Shown: positions 9,564 through 26,583, counted from the stretch's first letter. The stretch: 32,000 bases of DNA from Acaryochloris marina S15 (GCF_018336915.1 NZ_CP064923.1:5340001-5372000); one strand, 5' to 3'. Numbers and translations: made by a program. The notes: generated from the letters alone by a model not told the origin.

Positions 9564-10466
9564 GGTCGTGCATCAAACAATTGTGGGGTAGGTGAGTATG
9601 TCATCCCAATGCCAAGCTCGCGAGGCTAGATCAGCACGTTGTGCCGCCGTTGTTTTAAGCCGACTGTGTGTCCAAATCCAATTGAAATAGCTGACCACTA
9701 ATCGAGCAGTGACTTTGGTTTGCGCCCACACTTTGCCAAATTTGTTCTGGCGTCGATGCCATCGACCACTGTGCTGTCGAATAATGCCATTGGTGCGTTC
9801 GAGTCGTTGAGTTCTGTCCTTGCCAATGTAATGGTCAATCTTCCAAGGCAACACTCTTTCGTAACCACCCCAATCGTCGCTATTCCAGTCCTTGCAATCG
9901 GTCTTACCTTCAGTGCTAATCACCAGTTCATTCAATAATGAATCGGTGTGCTTGCCCACACGACACGAGAGGATCACGCCGCTTGTGTTTGCCAAGGTAA
10001 TCGCCATCCAACAATCACCCATCTCTAGCTCATGGGGAAGACAGTGTTTTTGCTTTTTTTCACAAAGGACCACATTTCATCTGCACTGACATCCTCCGTT
10101 TCAACGGCTTGCACTTGGCCATTATGGAGTTGCTGAGATCGTTGGCTAGCAGCTCTTACTAGAGAGACTACAGTGTTGTAAGCTAGGCCACTGGTCCGAG
10201 TGATACCTCGAAGACTACTCCCTTCTGCATGGGCTTGGAGGACTTGTCGGACCTGCTCTGGACTCACCTGACGACGATAGTAAAGGGTATCAAAGCGTTC
10301 GGTAAAGGTCTGCTGGCACTCAGGACAACGGTATCGTTGAAGCATGTTGGGCATCTTGCCATGCTTGTATGCTTTGGAATGACCGCATAGTGGGCATTGC
10401 ATGGGTAGGTTAGAAGCTGAGCTGAGCCTCTAGTATACTCAACCCACAATTACTTGAGGCACGACC
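9564..10466 (-). mobile_element. IS1-family insertion sequence (903 bp) with an 8-bp target-site duplication
   Basis: Inverted repeats: GGTCGTGCATCAAACAATTGTGGG (9564-) versus the reverse complement of the right end, GGTCGTGCCTCAAGTAATTGTGGG, matching at 21 of 24. A perfect direct repeat GATGCGAC flanks the element at 9556-9563 and 10467-10474. Confidence 0.9.
9573..10402 (-). CDS. IS1-family transposase InsA/InsAB', two frames joined by a programmed -1 frameshift
   Basis: ORF 10025-10402 encodes a zinc-finger/HTH InsA-like protein (CPLCGHSKAYKHG...CPECQ). ORF 9573-10073 carries the catalytic part (DCWMAITL..., WNSDDWGGY, RTNGIIRQ). The overlap contains an A7 run on the coding strand (T7 at 10054-10060). 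Confidence 0.85.
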
Positions 10467-14492: not shown

Positions 14493-14600
14493 TCAAGACA
14501 CAAACTGATTAACGCAGAACAGGAGACAGCCGTTGCAAGTGGCAGGTTGAGGAATAGTATCTGCTGCAGACACAATGCGATCGCTCTATTGTTTATCTCC
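14493..14600 (-). pseudogene. relic of the 3' end of a ChrR-type cupin anti-sigma factor gene, paralogous to 18046-18150
   Basis: The minus strand translates to ...GDKQ*SDRIVSAADTIPQPATCNGCLLFCVNQFVS*. The C-terminus of the intact gene at 18046 reads ...YQRGDRIISAADTIHQPSTRNGCLLFCMASMDNQFVS*. There is an in-frame stop and no upstream coding continuation. DNA similarity is visible, e.g. AGGAGACAGCCGTTGC in both. Confidence 0.7.
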
Positions 14601-14652: not shown

Positions 14653-15213
14653 TTAAACTTCCGTTGCGATCAATTTCAATAAGACTGTTTCTGTCTCTTG
14701 GAATAGATCAGGTTGTTTCATAACCAGTACCAAAAGTGTTGTTCCTTGCAATGCGCCAATAATGTGGCGGGCCATGGCAGCAGAACTATGGTTCTGTCCT
14801 AAGGCAATGGTTGTCCAATCCATCAAGAACGTTACAAAATGATTGACGGCTTCAGCGACTGGAGACGGCAGATCTAACGTCTCAGAGCCTAATGCACAAC
14901 ATAGACAGGGGACTCCATCCTCGATCAAGGCATCCTGATAGATCAGACAAAGCCGATGAATGCGGTCTTGCACGTCTTCCTGCGGATCGTCAGGGGCACC
15001 GAGGGCTGTAAGGATGCGTTCGGCATAGCGTTCTACGACTACTTTGCCCAAATTGGACTTTTTAGGGAAGTGATAATGAACACTCGATCCCTTGATGCCC
15101 ACATCGGCTGCAAGATCCCGATAGCTAACGGCATCAAAGCCACCTCGACGCATTCGGATTTCAGCGGCATCAAGAATTTCGAGAGCTTTTTCAGAATAAT
15201 GGGGGCGAGTCAT
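14653..15213 (-). CDS. TetR/AcrR-family transcriptional regulator
   Basis: 186 aa. N-terminal HTH: FDAVSYRDLAADVGIKGSSVHYHFPKKSNL. Confidence 0.85.
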   Translation of the reverse strand: MTRPHYSEKALEILDAAEIRMRRGGFDAVSYRDLAADVGIKGSSVHYHFPKKSNLGKVVVERYAERILTALGAPDDPQEDVQDRIHRLCLIYQDALIEDGVPCLCCALGSETLDLPSPVAEAVNHFVTFLMDWTTIALGQNHSSAAMARHIIGALQGTTLLVLVMKQPDLFQETETVLLKLIATEV

Positions 15214-15275
15214 AGATTCATTATCTAACGTCCAACCAGGGTTGACAAACCAGGCGAGTATTAGATACGGTTTGA

Positions 15276-15289
15276 CTAACGAGCGTTAG
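15276..15289. promoter_or_regulatory. candidate TetR operator palindrome CTAACG-AG-CGTTAG
   Basis: A 6-bp-arm palindrome lies about 65 bp upstream of the TetR start. The half-site TCTAACG recurs at about 15224-15230. The assignment to TetR is inference only. Confidence 0.25.
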
Positions 15290-15556
15290 ATGGATTAGCC
15301 GAGTATTTAGGATTGACGGCGTATTCACTACTTTAGACAAGATTCCTTAAAAATTAGCAAATACAAGGTTGTCTCCAATCCCTATCGTGTCTCGAATAGA
15401 TATGACGGTGATGGTAGGTCTGGCATTTGCAGAATTTGCTAGGATTCTTCTTTCTAATCGATTGAATATGCTGAGGTCTTTGGTGGGCTTGAGTTTACGG
15501 GCTTTAGTGATAAAGGCCTGTGAGCAGCTCAGATCACGGGGGAAAGAAATTCAGCT

Positions 15557-17857
15557 ATGGCGGAACAATTACCATCTTTTGCTTGGCAGCAAGCCATTCT
15601 AGATAGTGCTGACTTCACTATTATTTCCACGGATCTGGATGGGATTATTCAGACCATTAATGGTGAGGCCCTTCGCAAACTCGGCTATGAGCCTGAAGAA
15701 GTGATTGGCAAGGTTACTCCTGCAATTATCCATGATCCTTATGAAGTAGAACAAAGAGCCCAACAGCTCTCTATAGAATTGGGGTGCCCTATTGAACCAG
15801 GCTGTGAAGTCTTTGTCGCTAAGGCTCGCTTGGGCATCGCGGATGAGAATATTTGGACCTATATCTGCAAGGATAAACGTCGTTTTTTGGTGCGTCTATC
15901 TGTTACGGCCTTGCATGATGACGCCGGAAATTTGATCGGTTTTTTGGGAATTGGTAAAAATATCTCCAGCCAACCAGAGATTGAAGAATCTTTGTTTGTC
16001 AGTGAAGCCCGATTCTCCGCAGCATTCAATTTTGCGGCCATCGGCATGGCGTTAGTCTCCCCTGATGGACAGTGCATTAGGGTCAATGACTCTCTATCAA
16101 AGCTGTTGGGTTATGCTCCCATTGAGTTACTTTCCCTGACCTTATCAACGATCGTTCATCCTGACGATCGAGAGATAGAGAGCCGTTATCGGCAAGGGCT
16201 GATCGCGAGAGAGATAGACAACTATCCTCTAGAACTGCGTTGTATCCATAAACAAGGGAGTTATGTTTGGGTATCCCTCACGGTTTCTCGATTAGATGGA
16301 CCGCAAGATCATTGCACATGCTGCATTGCCCAAATACAAGATATTTCTGAACGCAAACACGCAGTCGCTGATTTACAGCAACTCAATACTAATCTTGAGC
16401 GGCTTGTGCTGGAGCGTACGAGTCAATTACAACAAGCGATAGAAACGGCAGAAATTGCTAATCGAGCTAGGAGTCAGTTTCTAGCCAATATGAGTCATGA
16501 GTTTCGCACCCCTCTCAACGGGATTATGGGGTTTAGCCAACTCTTGCTGCAAGATAGTCGGATTGCCCCCGATCAGCAATCGAGCCTTAATGTGATTCAT
16601 CGGAGTGGGGAACACCTGCTCTCTTTAGTCAATGAAGTGATCACCTTGTCCAAAATTGAGGCAGGCATCCTCACCTATGAGATTAAAGATGTGAATCTCC
16701 CCCATCTCTGTGAGGGACTACAAGACTTATTTGCCATTCAGGCGACCTCTAAGGATCTTCTGTTTCACATTCACCTGGATTCAGATATTCCCCAATTTGT
16801 GAAAACCGATGCCAAAAAACTTCGGCAAATTTTGATCAATCTGATTGGAAATGGTCTCAAGTTTACGGAGCAGGGCAGTGTTGAATGTTTGGTGCACTGG
16901 CGACCGTCTACCCCGGAAGCGGTGACCCATGATTTATGTTTCACTATCCAAGATACGGGTCCAGGCATTTCCCCACAGTTGCTGCCTAAACTATTTGATC
17001 CTTTTATCCAAGACTCTTTAACCCGTGAGGAGTTTGGCGGTTTGGGGTTAGGGTTATCCATTTGCCAAAGATTTATCAAATTGATGCAGGGAGAAATCAC
17101 AATAGACAGTGTCGAAGGCCAAGGCACCTGTGTCAGTTTTTATATTCAAGTTGAACCCGGCGAGACTCAACAAGCGCCCCAACAATCGCAAACTACGGTT
17201 GTGGGTTTAGTAGAACATCAAACCCCTTATCGGATCCTCGTCGTGGAAGATCATCCTGATAATCGCCAAATCCTCGTCATGATTTTAGAAGCTGTTGGGT
17301 TTGAGGTTGCTGAAGCCGAGAATGGTCAGCAAGCTTTAGATCTGAACCAGACGTGGCAGCCTCATTTGATCTGGATGGATCTACAATTGCCCCTCTTAAA
17401 TGGTCTAGAGGCGACTCAACTCATTAAGGCTAATAATCCCAATCCACCGGTCATTATTGCTTTAACCGCTCAAGCCCTGGAATCAGATGAGGTAAAGGCC
17501 CTGAAAGCAGGATGTGATGACTATGTCCGTAAACCCTATCAAGCAGCCCAAATTTTTGAAAAAATGGCTCAGCATTTGGACATTACTTACTACTATAAAA
17601 CGCAAAATCACTCTGTTCATTCCCTAGCCCCTGTTCCTCTTACCGCCAAGACCTTAGCTCTGATGTCACCAGCGTGGGTTCAGCAGCTCCATGATGCTGC
17701 GATTCGGTTGGATGAAGATAGCCTGGGTCGTTTGCTGCAAGACATTCCCCAACCTCAACAAACGTTGATATCTTCACTGGAGTATTTAATCACCACTTAT
17801 CAATATGACACCATCATGGAAAAGTCCCAGGCTGCGTTGAGATCCATAACGAACTAG
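15557..17857 (+). CDS. hybrid sensor histidine kinase/response regulator (PAS-PAS-HisKA-HATPase-REC plus C-terminal tail)
   Basis: 766 aa. Two PAS-like modules ([18 protein letters not shown]...; [18 protein letters not shown]...). H-box [10 protein letters not shown]. The N/G boxes are [12 protein letters not shown] and DTGPGI. The receiver domain is [14 protein letters not shown]...WMDLQLP...KPY. Confidence 0.9.
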
Positions 17858-18045: not shown

Positions 18046-18654
18046 TTATGAGACAAACTGATTGTCCATGGATGCCATGCAAAAGAGGAGACAGCCGTTG
18101 CGGGTAGAAGGCTGATGGATAGTATCGGCGGCAGAAATAATCCGATCACCCCGTTGATACACTTGTTCATCCACCACTAGATCACCAGCCAAAACTAAGA
18201 TTTCTTCTCCGGCTGCGTGATGATGTTTAGGAAATAGTCCCTCTTGGTCAGACTTCACAAAGAAAGCTAGTTCACGATGGAGGGTGTTGGCTTGGTACAC
18301 CGCATGCTTAAACTTACCCGGACCCTTTAGATCCTGCCATTCCACTTGGGTGGATAACTCAATGAGTTCATCAATCGGTGTAGACATGAGCTGGTAAAGC
18401 TCAGATGCTTTGAGCGTTGTGGCGTCAATGCGCTGGAACAGCCGATCTTTGAGATTGGGTGACATGGGTATGGCTGGAACGCTGTATGGGATCGCAGATA
18501 CCGCATCTTCAAACCCGGCAATTTCAGGTGCGAGTTCCTCGGCTGAATATTTTGCCACTGGCTGCTGTTCCGCATCATCCAGGGCACCCATTGCCGACAA
18601 GGCCGCCCAGTTAGAAAGCTCTTCAGAATTGGATTGTGGGGCTGGGTGATTCAT
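18046..18654 (-). CDS. soluble anti-sigma factor, ChrR-like: RskA-type N-terminal sigma-binding region plus C-terminal cupin
   Basis: 202 aa. The N-terminus reads LSNWAALSAMGALDDAE...SPNLKDRLFQRI and has no HxxxCxxC zinc motif and no TM segment. Cupin motif 1 is intact: HHHAAGEEILVLAG, i.e. HxH-x3-E-x6-G. The gene lies downstream of an ECF sigma gene. Confidence 0.7.
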   Translation of the reverse strand: MNHPAPQSNSEELSNWAALSAMGALDDAEQQPVAKYSAEELAPEIAGFEDAVSAIPYSVPAIPMSPNLKDRLFQRIDATTLKASELYQLMSTPIDELIELSTQVEWQDLKGPGKFKHAVYQANTLHRELAFFVKSDQEGLFPKHHHAAGEEILVLAGDLVVDEQVYQRGDRIISAADTIHQPSTRNGCLLFCMASMDNQFVS

Positions 18655-19584: not shown

Positions 19585-20838
19585 ATGCTATTGAACCCTC
19601 GTCAAAATCAGGCAAAAACCCGCCGTTTCTCGGCTAAATCCTTGTTAAAGCTCAGTGGCGTTGTTTTAGGGATGGGCCTGACCTTGGGCAGTTTTGCGCC
19701 CGTTACCTTGGCTTCGGATCATGATGATGGTGAAACTAACACTAAAAGCCGCAATCTGAATCTGACTGACTTGTATGTGTTCCGGGAAGGCGATCAAAAT
19801 CCCAACGCCTCCACCGATGATTTGGTTTTGATTATGAATACCAACCCCCGCTCAGTGGCGCGGCAGCAATACTATTTCAATAACAAGGCCCGCTACGAAT
19901 TCCATATTGCTCGTACAACCGATAACGACGCTACCCCCACGGGCAAGCCGGATGTGACTCTGCGGTTTGAATTTAGTAAACCCAAGCCCAATCAAACTCA
20001 GACCATCAAAATCACCACGATTCGAGATGGCAGTTCCCATGTAGGCAAGGCGGTGACCACCCCCCTAAATAGCAAACCCCACACGGCCCAAGTCCCCATG
20101 GGTGATCAAAACTTCTCCGTTTTTGCGGGACTACGAGAAGATCCTTTCTTCTTTGATGTGGAGCAGTTTTTCCGGGTCCGGGCTGGCGCATTAGGCAAAG
20201 GTCCTACGGTGGGCTTCCGGGACCCTGACAAGGCTGTGGACTTTACCACCGGGTATAACGTAAATGCGATCGCAGTTCGTATCCCCATCAAATTCCTTCA
20301 AAACAAGTCTGCCAACACCACCTTTGACGTTTGGCAAACCATCTCTGTTCGAGGCAAAGGCGGCAAATATCGGCAGGTGGAACGCTTGGCTCGTCCAGCA
20401 GTAAACGAAGGGCTGATTGTTTCCAATGCTTTCCTCAATGCTCTCAATAGTGTCGGTCCTGACTTTGAGGCGGCTGCCCTAGCCGGACAAAAGCCTGCTG
20501 CGAAAGTTGCAGGTCCTATCGTCAGTGAAGCCGCTCAAACTCTAAAAGCCATTGGCAACGATGACCAGCGTACTACCACCTTGCTCCAAGCCTTCTTGCC
20601 CGACGTGATGCGGATTGATACCACGGATGCCAGTGGTTATGGCAATGCTCTGAATAGTAAAGGCAGTCCTATTCGTGGTCGCTTACTCAAAGACGACGTG
20701 ATAGATATCACCCTGAGTGTTTTGACCAACGGGGCCATCACCACGGATAACGTTTCCTACGACGGCACCCCTGGCAATCCCTCCCAAGGCCACAGTCCCC
20801 TCCAAACCCAGTTTCCTTACCTAGCTCTTCCCAACTAA
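19585..20838 (+). CDS. secreted DUF4331-family protein
   Basis: AGGAGA Shine-Dalgarno 5 nt upstream of ATG 19585. The signal peptide reads ...VVLGMGLTLGSFAPVTLA|SDHDDGE. The mature N-terminus SDH.D...(N)..LTDLYVF followed by YEFHI is the pattern I associate with DUF4331. The track start at 19357 adds 76 non-signal residues and overlaps the sigma gene's 5' end on the opposite strand. Confidence 0.6.
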   Translation: MLLNPRQNQAKTRRFSAKSLLKLSGVVLGMGLTLGSFAPVTLASDHDDGETNTKSRNLNLTDLYVFREGDQNPNASTDDLVLIMNTNPRSVARQQYYFNNKARYEFHIARTTDNDATPTGKPDVTLRFEFSKPKPNQTQTIKITTIRDGSSHVGKAVTTPLNSKPHTAQVPMGDQNFSVFAGLREDPFFFDVEQFFRVRAGALGKGPTVGFRDPDKAVDFTTGYNVNAIAVRIPIKFLQNKSANTTFDVWQTISVRGKGGKYRQVERLARPAVNEGLIVSNAFLNALNSVGPDFEAAALAGQKPAAKVAGPIVSEAAQTLKAIGNDDQRTTTLLQAFLPDVMRIDTTDASGYGNALNSKGSPIRGRLLKDDVIDITLSVLTNGAITTDNVSYDGTPGNPSQGHSPLQTQFPYLALPN

Positions 20839-20857
20839 GTCTTCCTAGAGCCGCTTG

Positions 20858-20910
20858 CTTTCATCCTTTGCGGATCTCTCGGCCCTCGCTCGCAAGGGAT
20901 GAAAGTTTTA
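20858..20910 (+). terminator. intrinsic terminator/attenuator-like hairpin between the DUF4331 and TPR genes
   Basis: CTTTCATCCTTTGCG (20858-20872) pairs with CGCAAGGGATGAAAG (20891-20905), giving a 15-bp stem with one mismatch and an 18-nt loop. TTTTA follows. Confidence 0.5.
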
Positions 20911-20933
20911 CTTGTCCACCATGAGGTTTTGCA

Positions 20934-22259
20934 ATGATTTTGAATATCTGGAAATGGTCCCGTACCTCCTTTCTCTCAGGAGTTACGTTGACCCTAGTTC
21001 TGGGGATGAGCGTTGATCAGCCCGCCCAAGCAGGTGAATCCCATACCCATACCGCCGAGCATTCGGTAACGGATGCCCTTCGTCGCGAGATTGCCTTTTA
21101 CCAAAATCGGATTCAAGCCAATCCCAAAGATGGATTGGACCGTGCCGCTCTTGCTACCCTTTACCTGCAGCTAGCGACCTCCACTGGTAACACCCACTGG
21201 TATCACGAAGCAGAAGAAACAGCGCTTCAGTCTTTGGCTAACTTACCCTTCAATAACCTCGAAGCCCAGCTTGCTCTCGCAAAAGTGGCCCAAGCTGAGC
21301 ATCAGTTTGCGGAAGCTCTACAGTTCGCCGAGGCAGTCCTGCAGGAAAATCCCAATCATCAGCAAGCCCTCTCAATTATCGTTACCAGCAAGTTGGCCCA
21401 AGGACAGCTTCCTCAAGCGCGACAAGTCGCCGATCAACTGGTGGAGCAAGCCCCGACTTTGGTCAGCTATACCCTCCGGGCTTTGGTGCTAGTCGCTCAA
21501 GGTCAAGATCAAGCAGCTCTCCAAGATTTTCAACAGGCCTTGGCGTTGGAACAACCTGATCAACCGTCTCAAGCCGCCTGGACCCGCACATTACTAGGTC
21601 GCTATCATGCCCATCGAGGTCAACTGCCAGTGGCGAAACAGTACTATCAAGAGGCCTTACATCTGCAACCCCATTCTTCCTTTGCCCAGGTCAAACTAGC
21701 AGAACTAGAAACCCGCCAAGGCAATTATGGTGCTGCAAAAACCCTCTACAAGCACTTACTCCAGCATCCAGAAGCTTCTCATGGACAAGACCATGTGGCT
21801 CTGCAGGGACTCGCCCAACTGCGAGTTTTAGAAGGGAAATTAGCTGAAGCCAATCAACTCTGGGCCGAAGCAGAACATGAGTTTCGCGATCATCAGGATC
21901 TGGATCATTTTGGTCATCGTCGGGATTTGGCGAAGCTACTGTTGGCGAGAGGTCGTCAAGCCGATTTGCAGGAAGCACTGACCCTGATGCAGACGGAAGT
22001 CAACATTCGCCGCGATTCTGAGACCTTGAAAACTTTGGCCTGGGCGTTGTCGCGGTTGGAACGGTATGGTGAGGCCCGGAGCGTATTGCAAGATGCGATC
22101 GCATTAGGCACACAAGATGCCAGCCTGTTCTATCGAGCCAGTTTAGTAGAAGCTGTCCTAGGCAATAAGGCTCAAGCTGATGTCTATGCTCAAAAAGCGT
22201 TAGCGATAGACCCCAATTTTAATACCCGAGCGAGAGCTTTATTGGCTTTGGGCGGGTAG
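20934..22259 (+). CDS. secreted TPR-repeat protein with His-rich segments
   Basis: 441 aa. Signal peptide ...LVLGMSVDQPAQA|GESHTHTAEHS. Multiple TPR units are present, e.g. AEALQFAEAVLQENPNHQQAL. A His/Asp-rich stretch reads EHEFRDHQDLDHFGHRRD. Confidence 0.7.
   Translation: MILNIWKWSRTSFLSGVTLTLVLGMSVDQPAQAGESHTHTAEHSVTDALRREIAFYQNRIQANPKDGLDRAALATLYLQLATSTGNTHWYHEAEETALQSLANLPFNNLEAQLALAKVAQAEHQFAEALQFAEAVLQENPNHQQALSIIVTSKLAQGQLPQARQVADQLVEQAPTLVSYTLRALVLVAQGQDQAALQDFQQALALEQPDQPSQAAWTRTLLGRYHAHRGQLPVAKQYYQEALHLQPHSSFAQVKLAELETRQGNYGAAKTLYKHLLQHPEASHGQDHVALQGLAQLRVLEGKLAEANQLWAEAEHEFRDHQDLDHFGHRRDLAKLLLARGRQADLQEALTLMQTEVNIRRDSETLKTLAWALSRLERYGEARSVLQDAIALGTQDASLFYRASLVEAVLGNKAQADVYAQKALAIDPNFNTRARALLALGG
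22095..22259 (+). repeat. direct repeat copy 1: the 3' end of the intact TPR gene, starting at HIP1 GCGATCGC
   Basis: These 165 bp align without gaps to 23063-23227, with about 21 mismatches by hand count. Both copies start with GCGATCGC and end at a stop codon. Confidence 0.9.
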
Positions 22260-22320
22260 TTTTTAGAAGCCGAAGGGTTGGAGTCTGTAATGGGGCATGG
22301 CACAAAACTATAGACCACCA

Positions 22321-22349
22321 TTGACAGTATATTCTCGATATGAGAATAT
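22321..22349 (+). promoter_or_regulatory. candidate higBA promoter with overlapping operator palindrome
   Basis: TTGACA (22321-22326) is followed 17 nt later by GAATAT. The inverted repeat ATATTCTC-gatat-GAGAATAT (22329-22349) spans the spacer and -10 region, as is typical for autoregulated TA operators. Confidence 0.45.
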
Positions 22350-22380
22350 GGTGCTATTGGTCTAGTTTGATGTTATCTCT

Positions 22381-22680
22381 GTGCATGTTATTAGTCGCAA
22401 AATTCTTCGAGACTTTTGTCAAAAGCATGCTGATTCTTGTGAAGCGCTATTTGCTTGGTACAGGGTTGCAACCAAGGCCCACTGGCAAAGCCTACCTCAA
22501 ATCCAAGCTAGTTACCCCAAAGCAGAAGCAGTCGGTAATTTCACCGTTTTCAATATTAAGGGCAATACTTATCGTTTAATTGTGGATATCAACTACGTTA
22601 AGCAGCGAATCTACATCAAATATATTCTGACTCACGCTGATTACGATAAAGACCTCTGGAAAAATGACCTTTACTTTTAA
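22381..22680 (+). CDS. higB: type II toxin HigB (RelE-fold mRNA interferase)
   Basis: 99 aa with a GTG start. MHVISRKILRDFCQKH...AWYRVATKAHWQSLPQIQASYPKAEAVGN..VFNIKGNTYRLIVDINY...IYIKYILTHADYD matches the HigB_toxin family pattern. Confidence 0.85.
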   Translation: MHVISRKILRDFCQKHADSCEALFAWYRVATKAHWQSLPQIQASYPKAEAVGNFTVFNIKGNTYRLIVDINYVKQRIYIKYILTHADYDKDLWKNDLYF

Positions 22681-23062
22681 TGCGGATACCTATAGTCAGT
22701 TGTTGGCGGAGTATCGTCCCAAGGTCATTGCTTCTGAGCAGGAAAACGAAGCTGCGATCTCACTTGCACAAGAGTTAGAACATCTCCCAAATCAAACCCC
22801 GGAGCAGGAAGCGCTTCTTGATCTACTGGTGATGCTGATTGAAAAGTATGAAGATACTGCTTATCCGATTCCTGTCAGTACCCCCCGTGAAGTATTGCTG
22901 CACTTAATGGAGGCTAAGGGATGTATTCAAGAAGATTTGGTGGGTGTTATTGGATCGCGAGGGGTTGTTTCTGAAGTGGTGAATGGTAAGCGAGGTATTA
23001 GTATCGCTCAAGCTAAATCTTTGGCTGATTACTTTGGCGTTGATGCAGGACTTTTTATCTAA
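22664..23062 (+). CDS. higA: type II antitoxin HigA (HTH-XRE)
   Basis: 132 aa, overlapping higB by 17 nt. The C-terminal HTH reads LVGVIGSRGVVSEVVNGKRGISIAQAKSLADYFGV. Confidence 0.8.
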   Translation: MTFTFNADTYSQLLAEYRPKVIASEQENEAAISLAQELEHLPNQTPEQEALLDLLVMLIEKYEDTAYPIPVSTPREVLLHLMEAKGCIQEDLVGVIGSRGVVSEVVNGKRGISIAQAKSLADYFGVDAGLFI

Positions 23063-23227
23063 GCGATCGCACTCGGCACTCAAGATGCCAGTCTGTTTTA
23101 TCGAGCCAGTTTAGTAGAAGCGGCCCTAGGCAATCAGCCTCAAGCCGATGTCTATACTCAAAAGGCATTAGCGATAGACCCCAATTTCGATACCCGAGCA
23201 AGATCCTTATTGGCTTTGGGAGGATAA
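23063..23227 (+). pseudogene. displaced duplicate of the TPR gene 3' end (last 54 codons plus stop), with no 5' part
   Basis: It starts at a HIP1 site immediately after the higA TAA. It encodes AIALGTQDASLFYRASLVEAALGNQPQADVYTQKALAIDPNFDTRARSLLALGG*. The intact gene ends with ...AIALGTQDASLFYRASLVEAVLGNKAQADVYAQKALAIDPNFNTRARALLALGG*. Confidence 0.85.
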
Positions 23228-23332
23228 GGTGATTTCTAGATCTAGATGAATGGCGATCAAGGTCTGGGAAAGTATGACAATGGAGACAGTGAAAATCTGC
23301 TTCAGAAAATAGTCACAACCTATCGACAACAA

Positions 23333-24487
23333 CTACTTTTTATCCAAACGACCTATACGGTTAAATGGGAAAAATCTTTTAGTCGCTTGGCCAATAATTT
23401 CACTTCGTTTAACCAGCCCCCAGCATCGACTATCGAGACTCAGGTCTCGGTGGTCTCCTAATACCAAATAGTGATCGGGAGGAATCGTTTGCGGTTGGGA
23501 TAAATAGATGGGAATAGGTGGATCAATGGGCCTGCTTTCTACGTCCATCGTTACATAATTGGAACGACAAGTTTCGGGGCTTGGACTCTCTGTCGTTCCC
23601 GACATTGTGTAAGGCTCTTGCAAGGGTTGATTATTAAGCCAGACAACATTCTGTTTAATCTCAACTACATCACCTGAGATGCCAATAATCCGCTTTACAA
23701 AAGCATTCTCAAAGCCACCTTGTTTTAATGCCTGAGTGGGTTTAAACAGAATAATATCTCTTCGTTTTGGAGTTTGAAAGAGATAACTCACTTTATCTAC
23801 AACGATACGATCATTAATCTTTAGAGTTGGCTCCATTCCGCCAGATGAAATATACCGAGCTTCGACAATCAATGAACGAATAGCGAGGGCGAATATGACA
23901 GATAGGGCGATCGGGGCAATAATCAGCAGTAGAAATAATTTTAATATGATATTTTTGCTGCTTTTACGTTGATCTGAGGCAGCTTGATAAGCATGGTTAG
24001 CGACAAAGGGTAACACAAACCACAGCCCCAAGAAGACGAACCCCGGAGCATAAATCCAAGTTAGGATTTCAGCCACAATTAGAATCGAGCCCAGAATCCA
24101 TTTCCCCATGTAAAGATGGCCAGCGCCTAATACAAAACGGCTTAGGAACACGGCAAGCCAAGGATCTTTGAGCGTTTTTCGATGATTTTCAAATGCTGAA
24201 TCGTTGTTACGAATCGCAGCTCGATAGGCACTGATCCAACTTCCAAACCCCAATAATAGGAATAGGGCTATTGCACCAAAACCGATCAGCCCAGTCTCTT
24301 GGGCCGTAATGACTGAGAAAAGGGACAGCACAAATAGGGCTAAGTACGTAACAATGATGCCCCACCCTTGTAAGGGTTTGCCAGCATAAAGATGTCCTAA
24401 TCCCGGTAAAATCATCGACCAATTGACTGCGAGCCAAGGCTCTTTGGAGGATGGCTTACCGCTAGTCTCTGGTTCTTTATCAAGCAT
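23333..24487 (-). CDS. signal peptidase I (S26) homolog with a ~200-aa multi-TM N-terminal extension and Gly at the nucleophile-Ser position
   Basis: S26 boxes: ISSGGMEPTL (box B, canonical SxSM.PTL), RRDIILFKP, FVKRIIGISGDVV (Lys box), and LVLGDHRDLSLDSRCWGLV. ATG at 24487 is preceded by GGAGGA. The track start at 24499 is a TTG. Confidence 0.7.
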   Translation of the reverse strand: MLDKEPETSGKPSSKEPWLAVNWSMILPGLGHLYAGKPLQGWGIIVTYLALFVLSLFSVITAQETGLIGFGAIALFLLLGFGSWISAYRAAIRNNDSAFENHRKTLKDPWLAVFLSRFVLGAGHLYMGKWILGSILIVAEILTWIYAPGFVFLGLWFVLPFVANHAYQAASDQRKSSKNIILKLFLLLIIAPIALSVIFALAIRSLIVEARYISSGGMEPTLKINDRIVVDKVSYLFQTPKRRDIILFKPTQALKQGGFENAFVKRIIGISGDVVEIKQNVVWLNNQPLQEPYTMSGTTESPSPETCRSNYVTMDVESRPIDPPIPIYLSQPQTIPPDHYLVLGDHRDLSLDSRCWGLVKRSEIIGQATKRFFPFNRIGRLDKK

Positions 24488-24705
24488 GTTCTCCTCCAAA
24501 TACTGGCTAACTTAGGTCAAAGTATAAGATTCATGGGCATGCTTTCGAATGAAGAAATTGTGCAGTTAGATAAGGGGTATCCGTTATTGAACACCATCTA
24601 GGAAGTGAGTCTGCTGGAGCAGATGTTTCTGAGTGGGATGTGAAGTTTGCAGGCAGATTATCAGATTCAATATGCCATTGTTATTCGTAAACGCAAAAAT
24701 GGGCA

Positions 24706-25236
24706 TCAGTCTGAGGGCAATAGCTGACCATCTTCCATCTGGAGAATACGATCGGCCATATCGAGAATACGGTTGTCGTGAGTCACCAACATGACCGTAC
24801 ACCCTTCTTCTTGAGCCAGTTTTCGCATAATTTCCACTGCATCCCGACCTGTTTTGCTATCGAGGGCAGCGGTGGGTTCATCGGCGAGGACCAGTTTGGG
24901 GTAGCTGACGAGGGCGCGAGCAATGGCGACTCTTTGTTTCTGGCCCCCGGATAGATTGGCCGGATAGTAATTGATATGTTCTCCTAAGCCGACGGATTCC
25001 AGGATTGCGATGGTTTCCAACCGGCCTGTGGCCATCGCACGCTCCTGACGTTCCTCCACCGACAGATGAGTATGCAGCTTCAGAGACATACGCACATTCT
25101 CTTGAGCCGTCAGACAGTCCAGCAAATTATGGGATTGGAAGATAAAGCCAATCTGCTGACGGAGCTTGACCAGCTTTTTCTTGGGGCACCCAGGAGTTCT
25201 TGGCCCAGGAATTTGAGGCTGCCTTCCTGTTGCGAT
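24706..25236 (-). pseudogene. truncated, frameshifted duplicate of the devA 3' two-thirds (no Walker A)
   Basis: It aligns to 25903-26410 with roughly 90% identity by eye. It differs by a 24-nt insertion (25011-25034) and a 1-nt deletion in the T-run near 25178-25190. Homology stops at 25236, at the position of HIP1 26406-26413 in the intact gene. Confidence 0.85.
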
Positions 25237-25370
25237 TCGGTGCATCGGAGCGGCCGTCGACAAGGGAGGCGAAGTTAGTAGTCGTTCGTTGTCACTTGGT
25301 GGACTTATTCGTCAGGCTTTGTGAAAGCTGCACTTGTTACTATAGGCATAGTGATTGAGTGGCTACAGCC

Positions 25371-25577
25371 ATGATTTTTGATATCAAAATTGAGCAAGAA
25401 GAAGATGGGCGTTGGATTGCAGAGATTCCAAGCCTACCTGGAGTAATGCTCTATGGCCAAACCCCAGAGGAAGCAAAAGCTAAAGTAAAGGCTTTGGCAC
25501 TCAGGGTGCTCGCTGAACGTATTGAAAGTGGTGAAACTGAGCCTGAATTGGTCAGTGTTACGTTTAACGCTGCATGA
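25371..25577 (+). CDS. hicB: HicB-family (UPF0150) antitoxin, short form
   Basis: MIFDIKIEQEEDGRWIAEIPSLPGVMLYGQTPEEAKAKVKALALRVL is the HicB N-terminal fold pattern. The stop overlaps the next ATG (ATGA). An alternative GTG start lies at 25359. Confidence 0.75.
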   Translation: MIFDIKIEQEEDGRWIAEIPSLPGVMLYGQTPEEAKAKVKALALRVLAERIESGETEPELVSVTFNAA

Positions 25578-25792
25578 GTCAGTGGGGAAGCACTAAATCC
25601 AAAAGAGTCTTGGCAGCACTACTCAAAATTGGCTAGACCGTTAAACGTCAAACTGGTTCTCACCGTATTCTTTCCCGTGAAGGCTGGCCAGACTTTGTAT
25701 TCGCTTTCCATGATGGAGAAGAAATTGGTCCTCGCATGCTGGCACGGATTTCTAAGAAAACTGGACTTGAGCCTCGTGATATTGAAATTGAT
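25574..25792 (+). pseudogene. hicA: HicA-family toxin gene interrupted by an in-frame amber codon
   Basis: MSQWGSTKSKRVLAALLKIG-TAG-TVKRQTGSHRILSREGWPDFVFAFHDGEEIGPRMLARISKKTGLEPRDIEID. TAG at 25634-25636 occupies the position of the conserved Trp (..GW.....GSH). The same frame stays open afterwards to 25924. Confidence 0.75.
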
Positions 25793-25902
25793 AGACATGA
25801 CGCATCATCTAGCCATAGATGTTTGAGCTATCCTGTCAGTGTTTGCTGCTATAAATCTGAACATCGGCGACTCAGTTTGTCTGAGCTAAAACGCGACAGT
25901 GT

Positions 25903-26583
25903 TCAGTCAGTCGGTAATAGCTGACCATCTTCCATCTGGAGAATCCGATCCGCCATATCTAGAATACGGTTGTCGTGAGTCACCAACATGACCGTACAGC
26001 CTTCTTCTTGAGCCAGCTTTCGCATAATTTCAACGGCATCCCGCCCCGTCTTGCTATCAAGGGCAGCAGTGGGTTCATCGGCGAGGACCAGTTTGGGATA
26101 GCTGACGAGGGCGCGGGCAATGGCGACTCTTTGTTTTTGTCCCCCCGATAGACTTGCGGGATGGTAGTTGACATGTTCTCCTAAACCCACGGATTCGAGG
26201 ATTGCGATCGCACGCCCCTTACGTTCCTCCAACGTCAAATGGGTATGCAGCTTCAAAGACATGCGGACATTCTCTTGAGCCGTTAGACAGTCCAGCAAAT
26301 TATGGGATTGGAAGATAAAACCAATCTGCTGACGGAGCTTGACCAGCTTTTTTTTGGGAGCACCCAGGAGTTCTTGGCCCAGGAATTTGAGGCTGCCTTC
26401 CTGTTGCGATCGCAACGCCCCGATCAGCGTCAAAAGTGTGGTTTTTCCGCTCCCCGATGGTCCCATCAGGATCACAATCTCACCGGGATTTAAATCCAGA
26501 CTAATATCCTTAAGCACAGGCTTCCGCAACTGCCCTTTGCCAAAGGCATGATTCAGATGGCGAATCGAAACAATCGGGTCCAT
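25903..26583 (-). CDS. devA: DevA-family ABC exporter ATP-binding protein
   Basis: 226 aa. Walker A GPSGSGKTT, signature LSGGQKQR, Walker B LVLADEPT. It is the last gene of a devB-devC-devA arrangement. Confidence 0.9.
   Translation of the reverse strand: MDPIVSIRHLNHAFGKGQLRKPVLKDISLDLNPGEIVILMGPSGSGKTTLLTLIGALRSQQEGSLKFLGQELLGAPKKKLVKLRQQIGFIFQSHNLLDCLTAQENVRMSLKLHTHLTLEERKGRAIAILESVGLGEHVNYHPASLSGGQKQRVAIARALVSYPKLVLADEPTAALDSKTGRDAVEIMRKLAQEEGCTVMLVTHDNRILDMADRILQMEDGQLLPTD

What the first reader, a model, noticed from the sequence alone, without database searches (positions are those of the whole stretch)
22095..23227. higBA module bracketed by a 165-bp direct duplication of the TPR gene terminus
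Copy 1 (22095-22259) and copy 2 (23063-23227) are co-linear without gaps. Both start with GCGATCGC and both end in a stop codon (TAG versus TAA). About 21 of 165 positions differ by hand count, yet the peptides differ at only 5 of 54 residues. The 803 bp between them carries a complete unit: promoter, operator palindrome (22329-22349), higB and higA. The higA TAA abuts the HIP1 of copy 2 with no spacer. This resembles an integrative element that replaces the 3' end of its target gene, but no integrase is present.
Basis: seen in the sequence. Interest (0 to 1): 0.65.

Follow-up and report, generated by a model that had tools for sequence, protein, structure and literature searches.

The report
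Duplicated gene end flanking higBA
A toxin-antitoxin gene pair sits between two copies of the last 165 bases of a neighbouring gene, which is the scar of an old insertion that brought its own replacement gene end; the same kind of scar occurs three times within 12 kb, each starting at the cyanobacterial HIP1 palindrome.

Summary
Copies at 22095-22259 and 23063-23227 are collinear, differ at 21 of 165 bases, and bracket an intact higB-higA pair.

The window comes from an Acaryochloris cyanobacterium. The same structure is present in A. marina MBIC11017, NIES-2412 and several other assemblies, so it is old.

The layout matches prophage e14 in E. coli icd, which I checked directly. The inserted DNA supplies a replacement 3' end, and the original end is left behind as an orphan. 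Here, however, no integrase lies inside the bracket in any strain.

Two further cases lie nearby:
- The last 508 nt of devA are duplicated around hicBA.
- A 101-nt orphan of an anti-sigma gene end lies 3.4 kb from its gene, beyond a TetR regulator and a histidine kinase.

All three orphans start at a HIP1 site (GCGATCGC) and end at the stop codon. HIP1 occurs only 12 times in the window.

The orphans are decaying pseudogene fragments that still exchange sequence with functional alleles. The cargo between the copies changes between strains and is mostly toxin-antitoxin or defence genes.

Verdict: a known kind of insertion scar in an integrase-less, HIP1-edged variant. How the insertion was made is unresolved.

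The parts
20934..22259 (+). TPR-repeat protein gene (441 aa), the target gene; intact
   Evidence: ORF list. Pfam TPR families. Orthologs of 85-97% identity in Acaryochloris.
22095..22259 (+). Copy 1: the 3' terminus attached to the TPR gene. It starts with HIP1 (22095-22102) and ends in TAG.
   Evidence: In the window's clade, copy 1 forms a divergent group on the tree.
22260..22380 (+). Leader of the higBA cargo, with a -35 TTGACA (22321-22326) and an operator-like palindrome (22329-22349)
   Evidence: No promoter was called by the scan. The TTGACA and palindrome are conserved in CCMEE 5410.
22381..22680 (+). higB toxin gene (99 aa)
   Evidence: PF09907, E = 1.9e-30. The homologs are also 99 aa.
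22664..23062 (+). higA antitoxin gene (132 aa); overlaps higB by 17 nt
   Evidence: Weak HTH_3 match. 909 homologs at E <= 1e-10; several named ones are called HigA.
23063..23227 (+). Copy 2: orphan TPR terminus. It starts with HIP1 (23063-23070), ends in TAA, and is a non-functional fragment.
   Evidence: It is the fastest-evolving segment among close strains. NIES-2412's copy has an in-frame stop and a 1-bp deletion. L004's copy carries an 81-nt tract identical to the NIES-2412 copy 1 allele.
23333..24499 (-). Signal peptidase I (lepB-like) gene, the native flank between the two TA slots
   Evidence: PF10502. Syntenic in MBIC11017 and NIES-2412.
24706..25236 (-). Orphan copy of the last 508 nt of devA. 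It carries a 24-bp insertion that splits a HIP1 (filler at 25012-25033) and a 1-bp deletion.
   Evidence: Its downstream flank matches the MBIC11017 devA flank.
25237..25902 (+). hicBA cargo: hicB (25359-25577) and a hicA pseudogene (from 25574; TGG to TAG at 25634-25636; normal stop lost)
   Evidence: Pfam HicB-like and HicA. NIES-2412 has an intact 70-aa HicA.
25903..26583 (-). devA-like ABC ATPase gene, intact. Its attached terminus is 25903-26410, and the duplication edge lies at HIP1 26406-26413.
   Evidence: MBIC11017 has a single devA, which is an empty site.
14493..14593 (-). Orphan copy of the last ~110 nt of the ChrR-like anti-sigma gene. It starts at HIP1 14577-14584, ends in TGA, and has a 12-nt deletion.
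   Evidence: It is 89-90% identical to the MBIC11017 and CCMEE 5410 termini but 78% to the window's own gene.
14653..17857 (.). Cargo of the third slot: TetR regulator (14653-15213, minus strand) and hybrid histidine kinase (15557-17857, plus strand)
   Evidence: Pfam. This stretch is absent from MBIC11017 and CCMEE 5410, which hold other cargo at the same site.
18046..18654 (-). ChrR-like anti-sigma factor gene, target of the third duplication
   Evidence: PF12973; alignment.

Best explanation
The 165-bp duplication is the scar of an old insertion at the 3' end of the TPR gene.

**Proposed mechanism.** Incoming DNA recombined at the HIP1 site inside the gene. It carried its own copy of the gene's last 54 codons followed by cargo. 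The gene therefore stayed intact as copy 1, and the original terminus was pushed downstream as an untranslated orphan, copy 2. I think the joint was most likely made by a site-specific (tyrosine-type) recombinase that has since been lost or acted from elsewhere in the genome. Phage 21 and e14 do this at E. coli icd.

**What followed.** The bracket then persisted as a slot:
- Its cargo has been exchanged, truncated and copied by homologous recombination between strains.
- The orphan decays but is repeatedly overwritten in patches by functional TPR alleles.
- An addictive toxin-antitoxin cargo penalises collapse of the direct repeats.

**Shown:** the anatomy, its age, cargo turnover, decay of the orphans together with gene conversion, and the HIP1 edges.

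**Inferred:** that copy 1 was imported, the enzyme that made the joint, and the stabilising role of the toxin-antitoxin pair.
For: 1. The anatomy matches a verified case. In e14/icd, the attached end and the orphan icdC are each 165 nt and 92.7% identical. 11 of 12 differences are at third codon positions, the left edge is sharp, and the repeat ends at the stop. Here, 14 of 21 differences are at third positions and dN/dS is 0.14, the same as between orthologs (0.13-0.16). The edges are sharp on both sides.
2. The layout repeats at devA/hicBA and at the anti-sigma gene.
3. MBIC11017 has a single devA, which is an empty site for hicBA.
4. The orphan looks native and the attached end looks imported. 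The anti-sigma orphan is 89-90% identical to the MBIC11017 and CCMEE termini, while the attached terminus is 78-80%. The window clade's copy 2 clusters with mainstream alleles, while copy 1 is a separate divergent group. The devA orphan is contiguous with the native flank.
5. The 18 substitutions unique to the devA orphan include 13 at third positions, the same as in the intact copy. It therefore diverged while it was functional coding sequence.
6. The orphans are not functional. NIES-2412's copy 2 has a stop and a frameshift. The window's devA orphan has a 1-bp deletion. The anti-sigma orphan has a 12-nt deletion. L036's devA orphan has radical amino-acid changes.
7. There is exchange with functional alleles. 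L004's copy 2 is identical to NIES-2412's copy 1 over 81 nt. MBIC11017's copies are 93.9% alike but only about 85% identical to the window's. Both duplicated devA segments are 91-92% identical between the window and NIES-2412, against a 96-98% background.
8. All three orphans start at HIP1. There are 12 HIP1 sites in 32 kb. The chance probability is about 1.5e-7 genome-wide, or about 2e-5 if each edge is only required to fall within its gene.
9. A truncated tyrosine recombinase (PF13495, E = 6.5e-27) sits at the anti-sigma site in MBIC11017, CCMEE 5410 and L037.
10. The cargo across strains is mostly addiction or defence genes: higBA, hicBA, brnTA, tacAT, an AbiA reverse transcriptase and an Eco29kI restriction-modification system.
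Against: - No integrase lies inside any of the three brackets in any strain examined.
- The only integrase remnant lies beyond the orphan, outside the bracket. It may belong to a separate, older island.
- The cargo is very small (0.67-3.4 kb).
- No empty TPR site was found, so the direction of the event at this locus is inferred from the tree only.
- The two devA copies are equidistant from the MBIC11017 gene, so native and imported cannot be told apart there.
- At the anti-sigma gene, the attached copy has no HIP1 (GTGATCGG), and the foreign-type tract seems to begin about 10 nt upstream of the HIP1 position. That fits a homologous crossover better than a crossover inside a recombinase core.
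- One recombinase using three unrelated target genes would need a core hardly more specific than HIP1 itself.
Confidence: 0.45

Rival explanations
1. The event is the same (imported terminus plus cargo, native terminus displaced), but no dedicated recombinase was involved. DNA taken up from a related strain recombined by homology within the gene on one side. On the other side it was joined illegitimately at HIP1. HIP1 would serve either as the longest microhomology that two cyanobacterial sequences are likely to share, or as a site of breakage. The process would resemble homology-facilitated illegitimate recombination or the inter-chromatid integration that produces merodiploids during transformation.
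For: - No integrase lies in any bracket.
- All three edges are at HIP1. HIP1 is about 40-fold over-represented here (12 observed against 0.28 expected), so it is the most probable shared 8-mer.
- The devA orphan junction keeps only ATCGC.
- Two other HIP1 sites inside orphans are split as GCGAT + filler + ATCGC, with a 22-nt filler (window and NIES-2412) and a 1-nt filler (MBIC11017).
- The attached anti-sigma terminus lacks HIP1, and its foreign tract starts upstream of that position.
- A preprint reports that HIP1 in homology arms raises transformation efficiency in a Chi-like manner (10.1101/2024.09.10.611283).
- HIP1-promoted excision is in the literature (Robinson et al. 1997, cited in PMC4390886).
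- Transformation can create duplications by alternative pairing (PMC3784515).
- Acaryochloris has many recA copies and frequent duplication (PMC3156569).
Against: - Duplication, as opposed to deletion, is not the usual outcome of homology-facilitated illegitimate recombination (from my own knowledge).
- All three repeats end exactly at the stop codon. This is natural for an element that carries only the coding terminus. It is less natural for a random donor fragment, unless the intergenic DNA has diverged beyond recognition.
- The same preprint found no evidence that HIP1 is part of a restriction system in PCC 7002.
- The GCGAT...ATCGC scars number only two or three, and one could be simple slippage.
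Confidence: 0.3
2. Campbell-type integration took place. A small circular molecule, such as a plasmid fragment or an excised circle, carried the TPR terminus next to higBA. It integrated by a single RecA-mediated crossover within the 165-bp homology, which duplicated that segment.
For: - A single crossover with a circle produces exactly this direct duplication.
- No integrase is needed.
- The copies are mosaic.
- Recombination between copy 1 and copy 2 would regenerate such a circle.
- Acaryochloris carries many plasmids and recA paralogs (PMC3156569).
Against: - It gives no reason for the homology to begin exactly at HIP1 in three different genes, unless the circle itself was made by HIP1-to-HIP1 joining. 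In that case it merges with the previous rival.
- No free or plasmid copy was seen.
- It does not explain the first origin of a circle that carries a gene end.
Confidence: 0.1
3. An in-situ tandem duplication of the gene end occurred in the chromosome. The toxin-antitoxin pair landed between the copies or was already there. All differences between the copies arose afterwards.
For: - The structure is old and shared among strains.
- The two devA copies are equidistant from the MBIC11017 gene.
- Gene conversion can mimic allelic divergence.
Against: - Substitutions unique to the devA orphan are 13/18 at third positions, which is not neutral.
- dN/dS between the copies is 0.04-0.23.
- The anti-sigma orphan is closer to other strains' genes (about 90%) than to its own gene (78%).
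- A tandem duplication would also duplicate whatever lies between the edges, and the cargo is single-copy.
Confidence: 0.07
4. Copy 2 is functional. It could be a read-through extension of HigA, since it is in frame after the TAA. It could be a regulatory or terminator element. It could be a silent cassette kept to diversify the TPR C-terminus.
For: - Copy 2 is in frame with higA, and MBIC11017's 3-bp insertion preserves the frame.
- The reading frame is open in most strains.
- Sequence does pass between orphan and functional copies.
Against: - NIES-2412's copy 2 has an in-frame stop and a frameshift.
- Copy 2 is deleted in bin.137 and absent in CCMEE 5410 and L037.
- It is the fastest-changing segment among close strains.
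- No terminator was found on the + strand between 22200 and 23400, which covers copy 2.
- A diversity-generating retroelement is excluded. The mismatches are not adenine-specific and there is no reverse transcriptase in the window.
Confidence: 0.03

Closest known systems
Prophage e14 / phage 21 integrated in E. coli icd, with the orphan pseudogene icdC
   Same: - The element supplies a replacement 3' end of the target gene.
- The native end is stranded at the far side as a 165-nt orphan.
- The copies are 92.7% identical and 11 of 12 differences are at third codon positions.
- There is a sharp left edge, and the repeat ends at the stop codon.
- The cargo includes defence genes (lit, mcrA).
   Different: - e14 is 15 kb and carries intE and xisE. 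Here the cargo is 0.67-3.4 kb with no recombinase.
- The edge here is the genome-wide HIP1 palindrome, not a unique attachment site.
- Three different genes within 12 kb are affected.
- The copies here are older (87-92% identity) and show exchange between copies.
CIMEs (cis-mobilizable elements): integrase-less remnants of integrative elements still flanked by attachment sites, and site-specific accretion of elements in tandem
   Same: - Direct repeats derived from the target gene end.
- No recombination genes inside.
- The anti-sigma site shows two layers: the TetR-kinase insert, then the orphan, then an integrase remnant. This resembles accretion.
   Different: - Mobilisation in trans is untested.
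- No related complete element was found.
- The repeats here are long and diverged, unlike short identical cores.
Homology-facilitated illegitimate recombination and transformation-generated merodiploidy (PMC3784515)
   Same: - No integrase is needed.
- One homologous anchor is combined with one joint at a short repeat.
- Both can create duplications in naturally transformable bacteria.
   Different: - Merodiploids in that study were bordered by IS-length repeats and spanned 100-900 kb.
- Here the joint would rest on an 8-bp microhomology, and the duplicated segment is 0.1-0.5 kb.
Toxin-antitoxin cassettes of chromosomal integrons
   Same: - Small self-contained toxin-antitoxin units appear as interchangeable cargo.
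- Some database homologs of the recombinase fragment found in relatives are labelled integron integrase by their source. Its only domain match is PF13495, an N-terminal integrase domain.
   Different: - There is no room for an attC site, because higA abuts copy 2 directly.
- There is no attI site or cassette array.
- The flanks are duplicated host gene ends.
Core-genome defence or integration hotspots with cargo turnover by flanking homology
   Same: The same position between conserved genes holds different toxin-antitoxin, restriction-modification or Abi cargo in different strains.
   Different: Here the hotspot is framed by a gene-terminus duplication with a HIP1 edge.

Membership tests
Terminus-replacing site-specific integrative element (e14/phage 21 in icd type) | Direct repeat made of the target gene's 3' end, with the gene left intact | tested here: met
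   The TPR ORF is intact and ends like its orthologs.
Terminus-replacing site-specific integrative element (e14/phage 21 in icd type) | Sharp edge at the crossover point, and a repeat that ends at the gene end | tested here: met
   No homology upstream of the repeat (p = 0.18-0.92) or after the stop (p = 0.31-0.88). This holds for all three cases.
Terminus-replacing site-specific integrative element (e14/phage 21 in icd type) | Integrase or recombinase gene inside the element | tested here: not met
   None lies between the copies in the window or in related strains. A truncated PF13495 recombinase occurs only at the anti-sigma site in relatives, outside the bracket.
Terminus-replacing site-specific integrative element (e14/phage 21 in icd type) | Empty site in related genomes | tested here: inconclusive
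   Met for devA/hicBA, because MBIC11017 has a single devA. Not found for TPR/higBA: all Acaryochloris loci with enough sequence downstream of the TPR gene carry higA or a remnant of it, and the next relatives are only about 50% identical.
Terminus-replacing site-specific integrative element (e14/phage 21 in icd type) | Orphan is the native allele and the attached end is the imported allele | tested here: inconclusive
   Clear at the anti-sigma gene. Suggested at TPR by the tree. Not resolvable at devA.
Type II toxin-antitoxin system HigBA | HigB (RelE-fold) toxin domain | tested here: met
   PF09907, E = 1.9e-30, 99 aa.
Type II toxin-antitoxin system HigBA | Toxin gene upstream of an HTH antitoxin gene, overlapping, with a palindromic operator | tested here: met
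   higB precedes higA with a 17-nt overlap. HTH_3 match is weak. Palindrome at 22329-22349.
Type II toxin-antitoxin system HigBA | Toxicity and neutralisation | not testable with these tools
   This needs expression experiments.
Diversity-generating retroelement (template and variable repeat) | Adenine-specific mismatches between the repeats, and a nearby reverse transcriptase | tested here: not met
   Mismatches are of all types (T>C 5, G>A 5, others). No reverse transcriptase was identified in the window. The AbiA-type RT seen in L036 and L037 is a defence enzyme.
Integron gene cassette | attC recombination site at the 3' end of the cassette | tested here: not met
   There are zero bases between the higA stop and copy 2. 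No attC-like inverted repeat appeared in the repeat scan.
Transposon or IS insertion with target-site duplication | Short target duplication (2-15 bp), terminal inverted repeats, and a transposase | tested here: not met
   The duplications are 101-508 nt. No terminal inverted repeats or transposase are present in the brackets.

The most novel reading that the evidence does not exclude
HIP1, the hyper-abundant cyanobacterial palindrome whose function has been debated for about 30 years, is the joint used by a general gene-capture route. Foreign DNA would be spliced in at a HIP1 site inside the 3' end of a gene, either by a host or trans-acting recombinase or by break or microhomology repair. 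Only those events in which the incoming piece restores the gene end would survive. This would create long-lived slots, bracketed by the gene terminus, that collect toxin-antitoxin and defence genes. Their orphan termini would feed sequence variation back into the functional gene.
Probability: 0.25. Interest if true: 0.8.

Novelty: new variant of a known kind. Interest (0 to 1): 0.48.

Why it matters
- **Toxin-antitoxin biology.** The data support a concrete picture. Small chromosomal modules can be the last survivors, or the exchangeable cargo, of insertion slots framed by a duplicated gene end. Their addictive nature would oppose collapse of the repeats.
- **Cyanobacterial genomics.** Three of three orphan termini start at HIP1. 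Two further HIP1 sites inside orphans are split by insertions. This points to HIP1 as a preferred recombination or breakage joint during gene acquisition. The idea can be tested by a genome-wide survey and by transformation experiments.
- **Genome annotation.** Orphan termini that keep open reading frames, because functional alleles keep overwriting them, can be mistaken for genes or for recent duplications. They also raise the apparent divergence of the functional gene's 3' end (91.9% against 96.5% within devA).

Tried and rejected
- **Diversity-generating retroelement.** The mismatches are not adenine-specific and no reverse transcriptase was found in the window.
- **Longer paralogous remnant.** There is no homology upstream of copy 2.
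- **Read-through extension of HigA.** NIES-2412's copy 2 has a stop and a frameshift, and copy 2 is missing in several strains.
- **A property of the higBA family.** Four contexts of 64-71% identical HigA proteins in other cyanobacteria, and a second Acaryochloris locus (L035), have no bracketing repeats.
- **L022 repeat.** A 131-nt repeat around a small toxin-antitoxin-like pair in L022 turned out to be a MITE-like dispersed repeat, not a gene end.
- **Metagenome scan.** The scan with the TPR protein returned only about 25% identical relatives.
- **Outgroup with an empty TPR site.** Identity drops from 85% to about 50% with nothing in between.
- **Full-length relatives of the truncated recombinase.** In Acaryochloris the closest hits are all the same 148-aa fragment.
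- **The 22-nt filler that splits a HIP1.** It has no other copy in the window.
- **Literature.** Searches found no description of toxin-antitoxin modules bracketed by gene-terminus duplications, or of HIP1-edged insertions.
- **CCMEE 5410 junction.** No IS terminal inverted repeat was found at the point where copy 2 is missing.


Full report
**1. The observation**

The repeat finder gives 22095-22258 against 23063-23226 at 88%. I count 21 mismatches over 165 ungapped positions.

Both copies begin with GCGATCGC (HIP1). Copy 1 ends in TAG and copy 2 in TAA.

The 21 differences fall 14 on third, 6 on first and 1 on second codon positions. The peptides differ at 6 of 54 residues, not 5.

Nothing outside the copies aligns. 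In-register identity there is 25-35%. Local alignment of the 80 nt upstream and downstream is no better than shuffled sequence.

The 803 nt between the copies hold four things:
- higB (PF09907, E = 1.9e-30).
- An overlapping higA. It has a weak HTH_3 match and 909 homologs at E <= 1e-10. Several of the homologs that carry a source name are called HigA.
- A perfect -35 hexamer.
- The palindrome ATATTCTC-N5-GAGAATAT.

The consensus scan called no promoter.

**2. Organism and age**

The TPR protein has 85-86% identical orthologs in Acaryochloris marina MBIC11017 and in two Acaryochloris MAGs. Contexts fetched through HigA show several states of the locus.

| Strain or assembly | State of the TPR locus |
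|---|---|
| Five assemblies 97.5-100% identical to the window, L019, and NIES-2412 | TPR, copy 1, higBA, copy 2, lepB |
| MBIC11017 | Both copies and higA kept; higB replaced by an unrelated ORF |
| MAG bin.137 | brnT/brnA after the TPR gene; a deletion runs from mid-higA to lepB and removes copy 2 |
| CCMEE 5410 | TPR-higBA, then unrelated DNA starting exactly at the higA/HIP1 junction |

No Acaryochloris locus lacks higA. The next TPR relatives are only about 50% identical. The bracket is therefore older than the sampled diversity, and its contents turn over.

**3. Two sister structures in the same window**

First, on the minus strand, the devA-like ABC ATPase gene (25903-26583) is followed by hicB and a hicA pseudogene. 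The pseudogene has TGG changed to TAG at 25634-25636. After that comes an orphan copy of devA's last 508 nt (24706-25236).
- NIES-2412 has the same structure with an intact hicA.
- MBIC11017 has a single devA, which is an empty site.

Second, a 101-nt orphan of the ChrR-like anti-sigma gene terminus lies at 14493-14593. It is separated from its gene (18046-18654) by a TetR regulator and a hybrid histidine kinase.

A self-comparison of the whole window finds these three repeats and no others.

**4. The edges**

All three orphans start at a HIP1 site. The devA orphan retains only ATCGC of it, but the intact gene has a full HIP1 at that point. All three end at the stop codon.

HIP1 occurs 12 times in 32 kb. 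The chance that three edges fall within 3 nt of a site is about 1.5e-7. It is about 2e-5 if each edge is only required to fall within its gene.

Two more HIP1 sites inside orphans are split as GCGAT + filler + ATCGC:
- A 22-nt filler, shared by the window and NIES-2412.
- A 1-nt filler in MBIC11017.

**5. What the orphans are**

They decay:
- NIES-2412's copy 2 has an in-frame stop and a 1-bp deletion.
- The window's devA orphan has a 1-bp deletion.
- The anti-sigma orphan has a 12-nt deletion.
- A devA orphan in L036 has radical amino-acid replacements.

Among near-identical strains, copy 2 is the most variable segment. Against L004 it differs at 9.1% of positions, while higBA differs at 0-1%.

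Yet dN/dS between copy 1 and copy 2 is 0.04-0.23, like orthologs. The 18 substitutions private to the devA orphan are 13/18 at third positions.

The explanation is exchange with functional alleles:
- L004's copy 2 is identical to NIES-2412's copy 1 over 81 nt, flanked by copy-2-specific bases.
- MBIC11017's two copies are 93.9% alike, but each is only about 85% identical to the window's copies.
- Between the window and NIES-2412, both duplicated devA segments are 91-92% identical. The surrounding background is 96-98%, and there is a step at the HIP1 inside devA.

**6. Which copy is native**

- At the anti-sigma gene, the orphan is 89-90% identical to the MBIC11017 and CCMEE termini. The attached terminus is only 78-80% identical to them.
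- On the TPR tree, the window clade's copy 2 sequences sit among mainstream alleles. Its copy 1 sequences form a separate divergent group.
- The devA orphan is contiguous with the flank seen next to MBIC11017's single devA.

This fits a model in which the incoming DNA supplied the attached terminus. For devA, however, the two copies are equidistant from the MBIC11017 gene.

**7. Comparison with a verified case**

In E. coli K-12, prophage e14 begins 165 nt before the end of icd. A 165-nt pseudogene, icdC, lies at its far end. The pair is 92.7% identical, and 11 of 12 differences are at third positions. There are 2 amino-acid changes and a sharp left edge, and the repeat ends at the stop.

The anatomy here is the same. 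The difference is that e14 carries intE and xisE, and no bracket here contains a recombinase.

**8. Integrase evidence**

At the anti-sigma site, MBIC11017 and CCMEE 5410 carry a truncated tyrosine recombinase (PF13495, E = 6.5e-27). It abuts the neighbouring gene at the position where the window has the orphan. Different cargo lies beside it:
- An Eco29kI restriction-modification system in MBIC11017.
- IS remnants and a DUF1353 protein in CCMEE 5410.

L037 keeps residues 96-148 of this recombinase, fused to HIP1 plus 10 nt of the orphan. The recombinase remnant therefore lies beyond the orphan. This indicates two layers of insertion. That could be accretion at one attachment site or two unrelated events.

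**9. Cargo and movement**

Across strains the slots hold higBA, hicBA, brnTA, tacAT, an AbiA-type reverse transcriptase (PADLOC E = 1.4e-86), a restriction-modification system, and TetR plus a kinase.

In L036 and bin.137, a higBA copy lies in the devA slot and still carries a HIP1 plus a stub of about 20 nt of copy 2. It was therefore copied out of the TPR slot.

L037 looks like a deletion between two such higA copies.

HigA homologs in four other cyanobacterial contexts, and at a second bin.137 locus, have no bracketing repeats. The duplication is therefore a property of these sites and not of the toxin-antitoxin family.

**10. Mechanism**

I favour an e14-like, recombinase-mediated, terminus-replacing insertion whose recombinase has been lost or acts in trans (confidence 0.45). 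The main rival is a recombinase-free joint at HIP1 during uptake of foreign DNA (0.30).

Points supporting the rival:
- No integrase lies in any bracket.
- The orphan junctions show half-site and split-HIP1 scars.
- The attached anti-sigma terminus has no HIP1.
- A preprint reports that HIP1 stimulates recombination in a Chi-like way.
- HIP1-promoted excision has been reported (cited).
- Acaryochloris has unusually many recA copies and frequent duplication.

Campbell-type integration of a circle, in-situ duplication and a functional copy 2 are less likely (see the rival explanations).

The role of the toxin-antitoxin pair in protecting the repeats from collapse is an inference.

**11. Verdict**

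This is a real, old feature of a well-known kind, in an unusual integrase-less and HIP1-edged form that recurs three times in 12 kb. The higBA bracket alone is moderately interesting. The link to HIP1 is the part worth following up.

Noticed in passing
window 24706-26583 (minus strand): A second terminus duplication. The last 508 nt of devA are duplicated around hicB and a hicA pseudogene. The structure is shared with NIES-2412, where hicA is intact. MBIC11017 has a single devA.
   Followed up: yes
window 14493-14593 and 18046-18654: A third orphan gene terminus, from the ChrR-like anti-sigma factor. It starts at HIP1 and ends at a stop. It is closer to other strains' alleles (about 90%) than to the window's own gene (78%). 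TetR and a hybrid histidine kinase lie between the orphan and its gene.
   Followed up: yes
window 25010-25035; L017 (NIES-2412) devA orphan; L002 10201-10211: HIP1 sites inside orphan fragments are split as GCGAT + filler + ATCGC, with the central AT on both sides. One filler is 22 nt, shared by the window and NIES-2412. The other is 1 nt, in MBIC11017's copy 2. This may be a footprint of staggered breakage at HIP1, or slippage. The 22-mer has no other copy in the window.
   Followed up: partly
window 20000-25236 compared with L004, L017 and L019: Divergence between close strains is strongly mosaic. Against L004, higBA and its leader differ at 0-1%, the TPR gene at 4.4%, lepB at 5.8% and copy 2 at 9.1%. 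Against NIES-2412, a block from DUF4331 to the devA orphan is 84-94% identical in a 96-98% background. This indicates frequent homologous exchange between strains.
   Followed up: partly
L002 1033-5069 (MBIC11017); L031 5716-8447 (CCMEE 5410): At the anti-sigma / TPR-like gene junction these strains hold a truncated tyrosine recombinase (148 aa in both). Alongside it, MBIC11017 has an Eco29kI-type restriction-modification system, and CCMEE 5410 has IS remnants and a DUF1353 protein. The junction is a recurrent insertion hotspot.
   Followed up: partly
L036 5483-10730; L037 9798-12859; L003 7932-8594: In other Acaryochloris lineages the devA slot carries an AbiA-type defence reverse transcriptase, tacAT and a second higBA copy. 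That higBA copy retains a HIP1 plus a stub of the TPR terminus. L037 lacks copy 2, lepB and the devA orphan, as if two higA copies had recombined. devA in L036 has a frameshift in the Walker A region, or a sequencing error.
   Followed up: partly
window 9573-10402 (minus strand): Two ORFs with IS1-family matches (InsA zinc ribbon and IS1 DDE transposase). This is probably an IS1-like element with the usual frameshifted pair.
   Followed up: no
L022 2200-2329 and 3263-3390: In an unrelated cyanobacterium, a 131-nt MITE-like direct repeat (90% identity) brackets two small overlapping ORFs that look like an antitoxin and a truncated PIN toxin. It is not a gene terminus, and the locus contains no HIP1.
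   Followed up: partly
L009 5600-5623 (CCMEE 5410): The TPR stop codon TAG is CAG in CCMEE 5410, which extends the protein by two residues to a TGA. After higA, its sequence (GGAAATCGG) resembles a degenerate HIP1 at the exact point where copy 2 begins in other strains.
   Followed up: no
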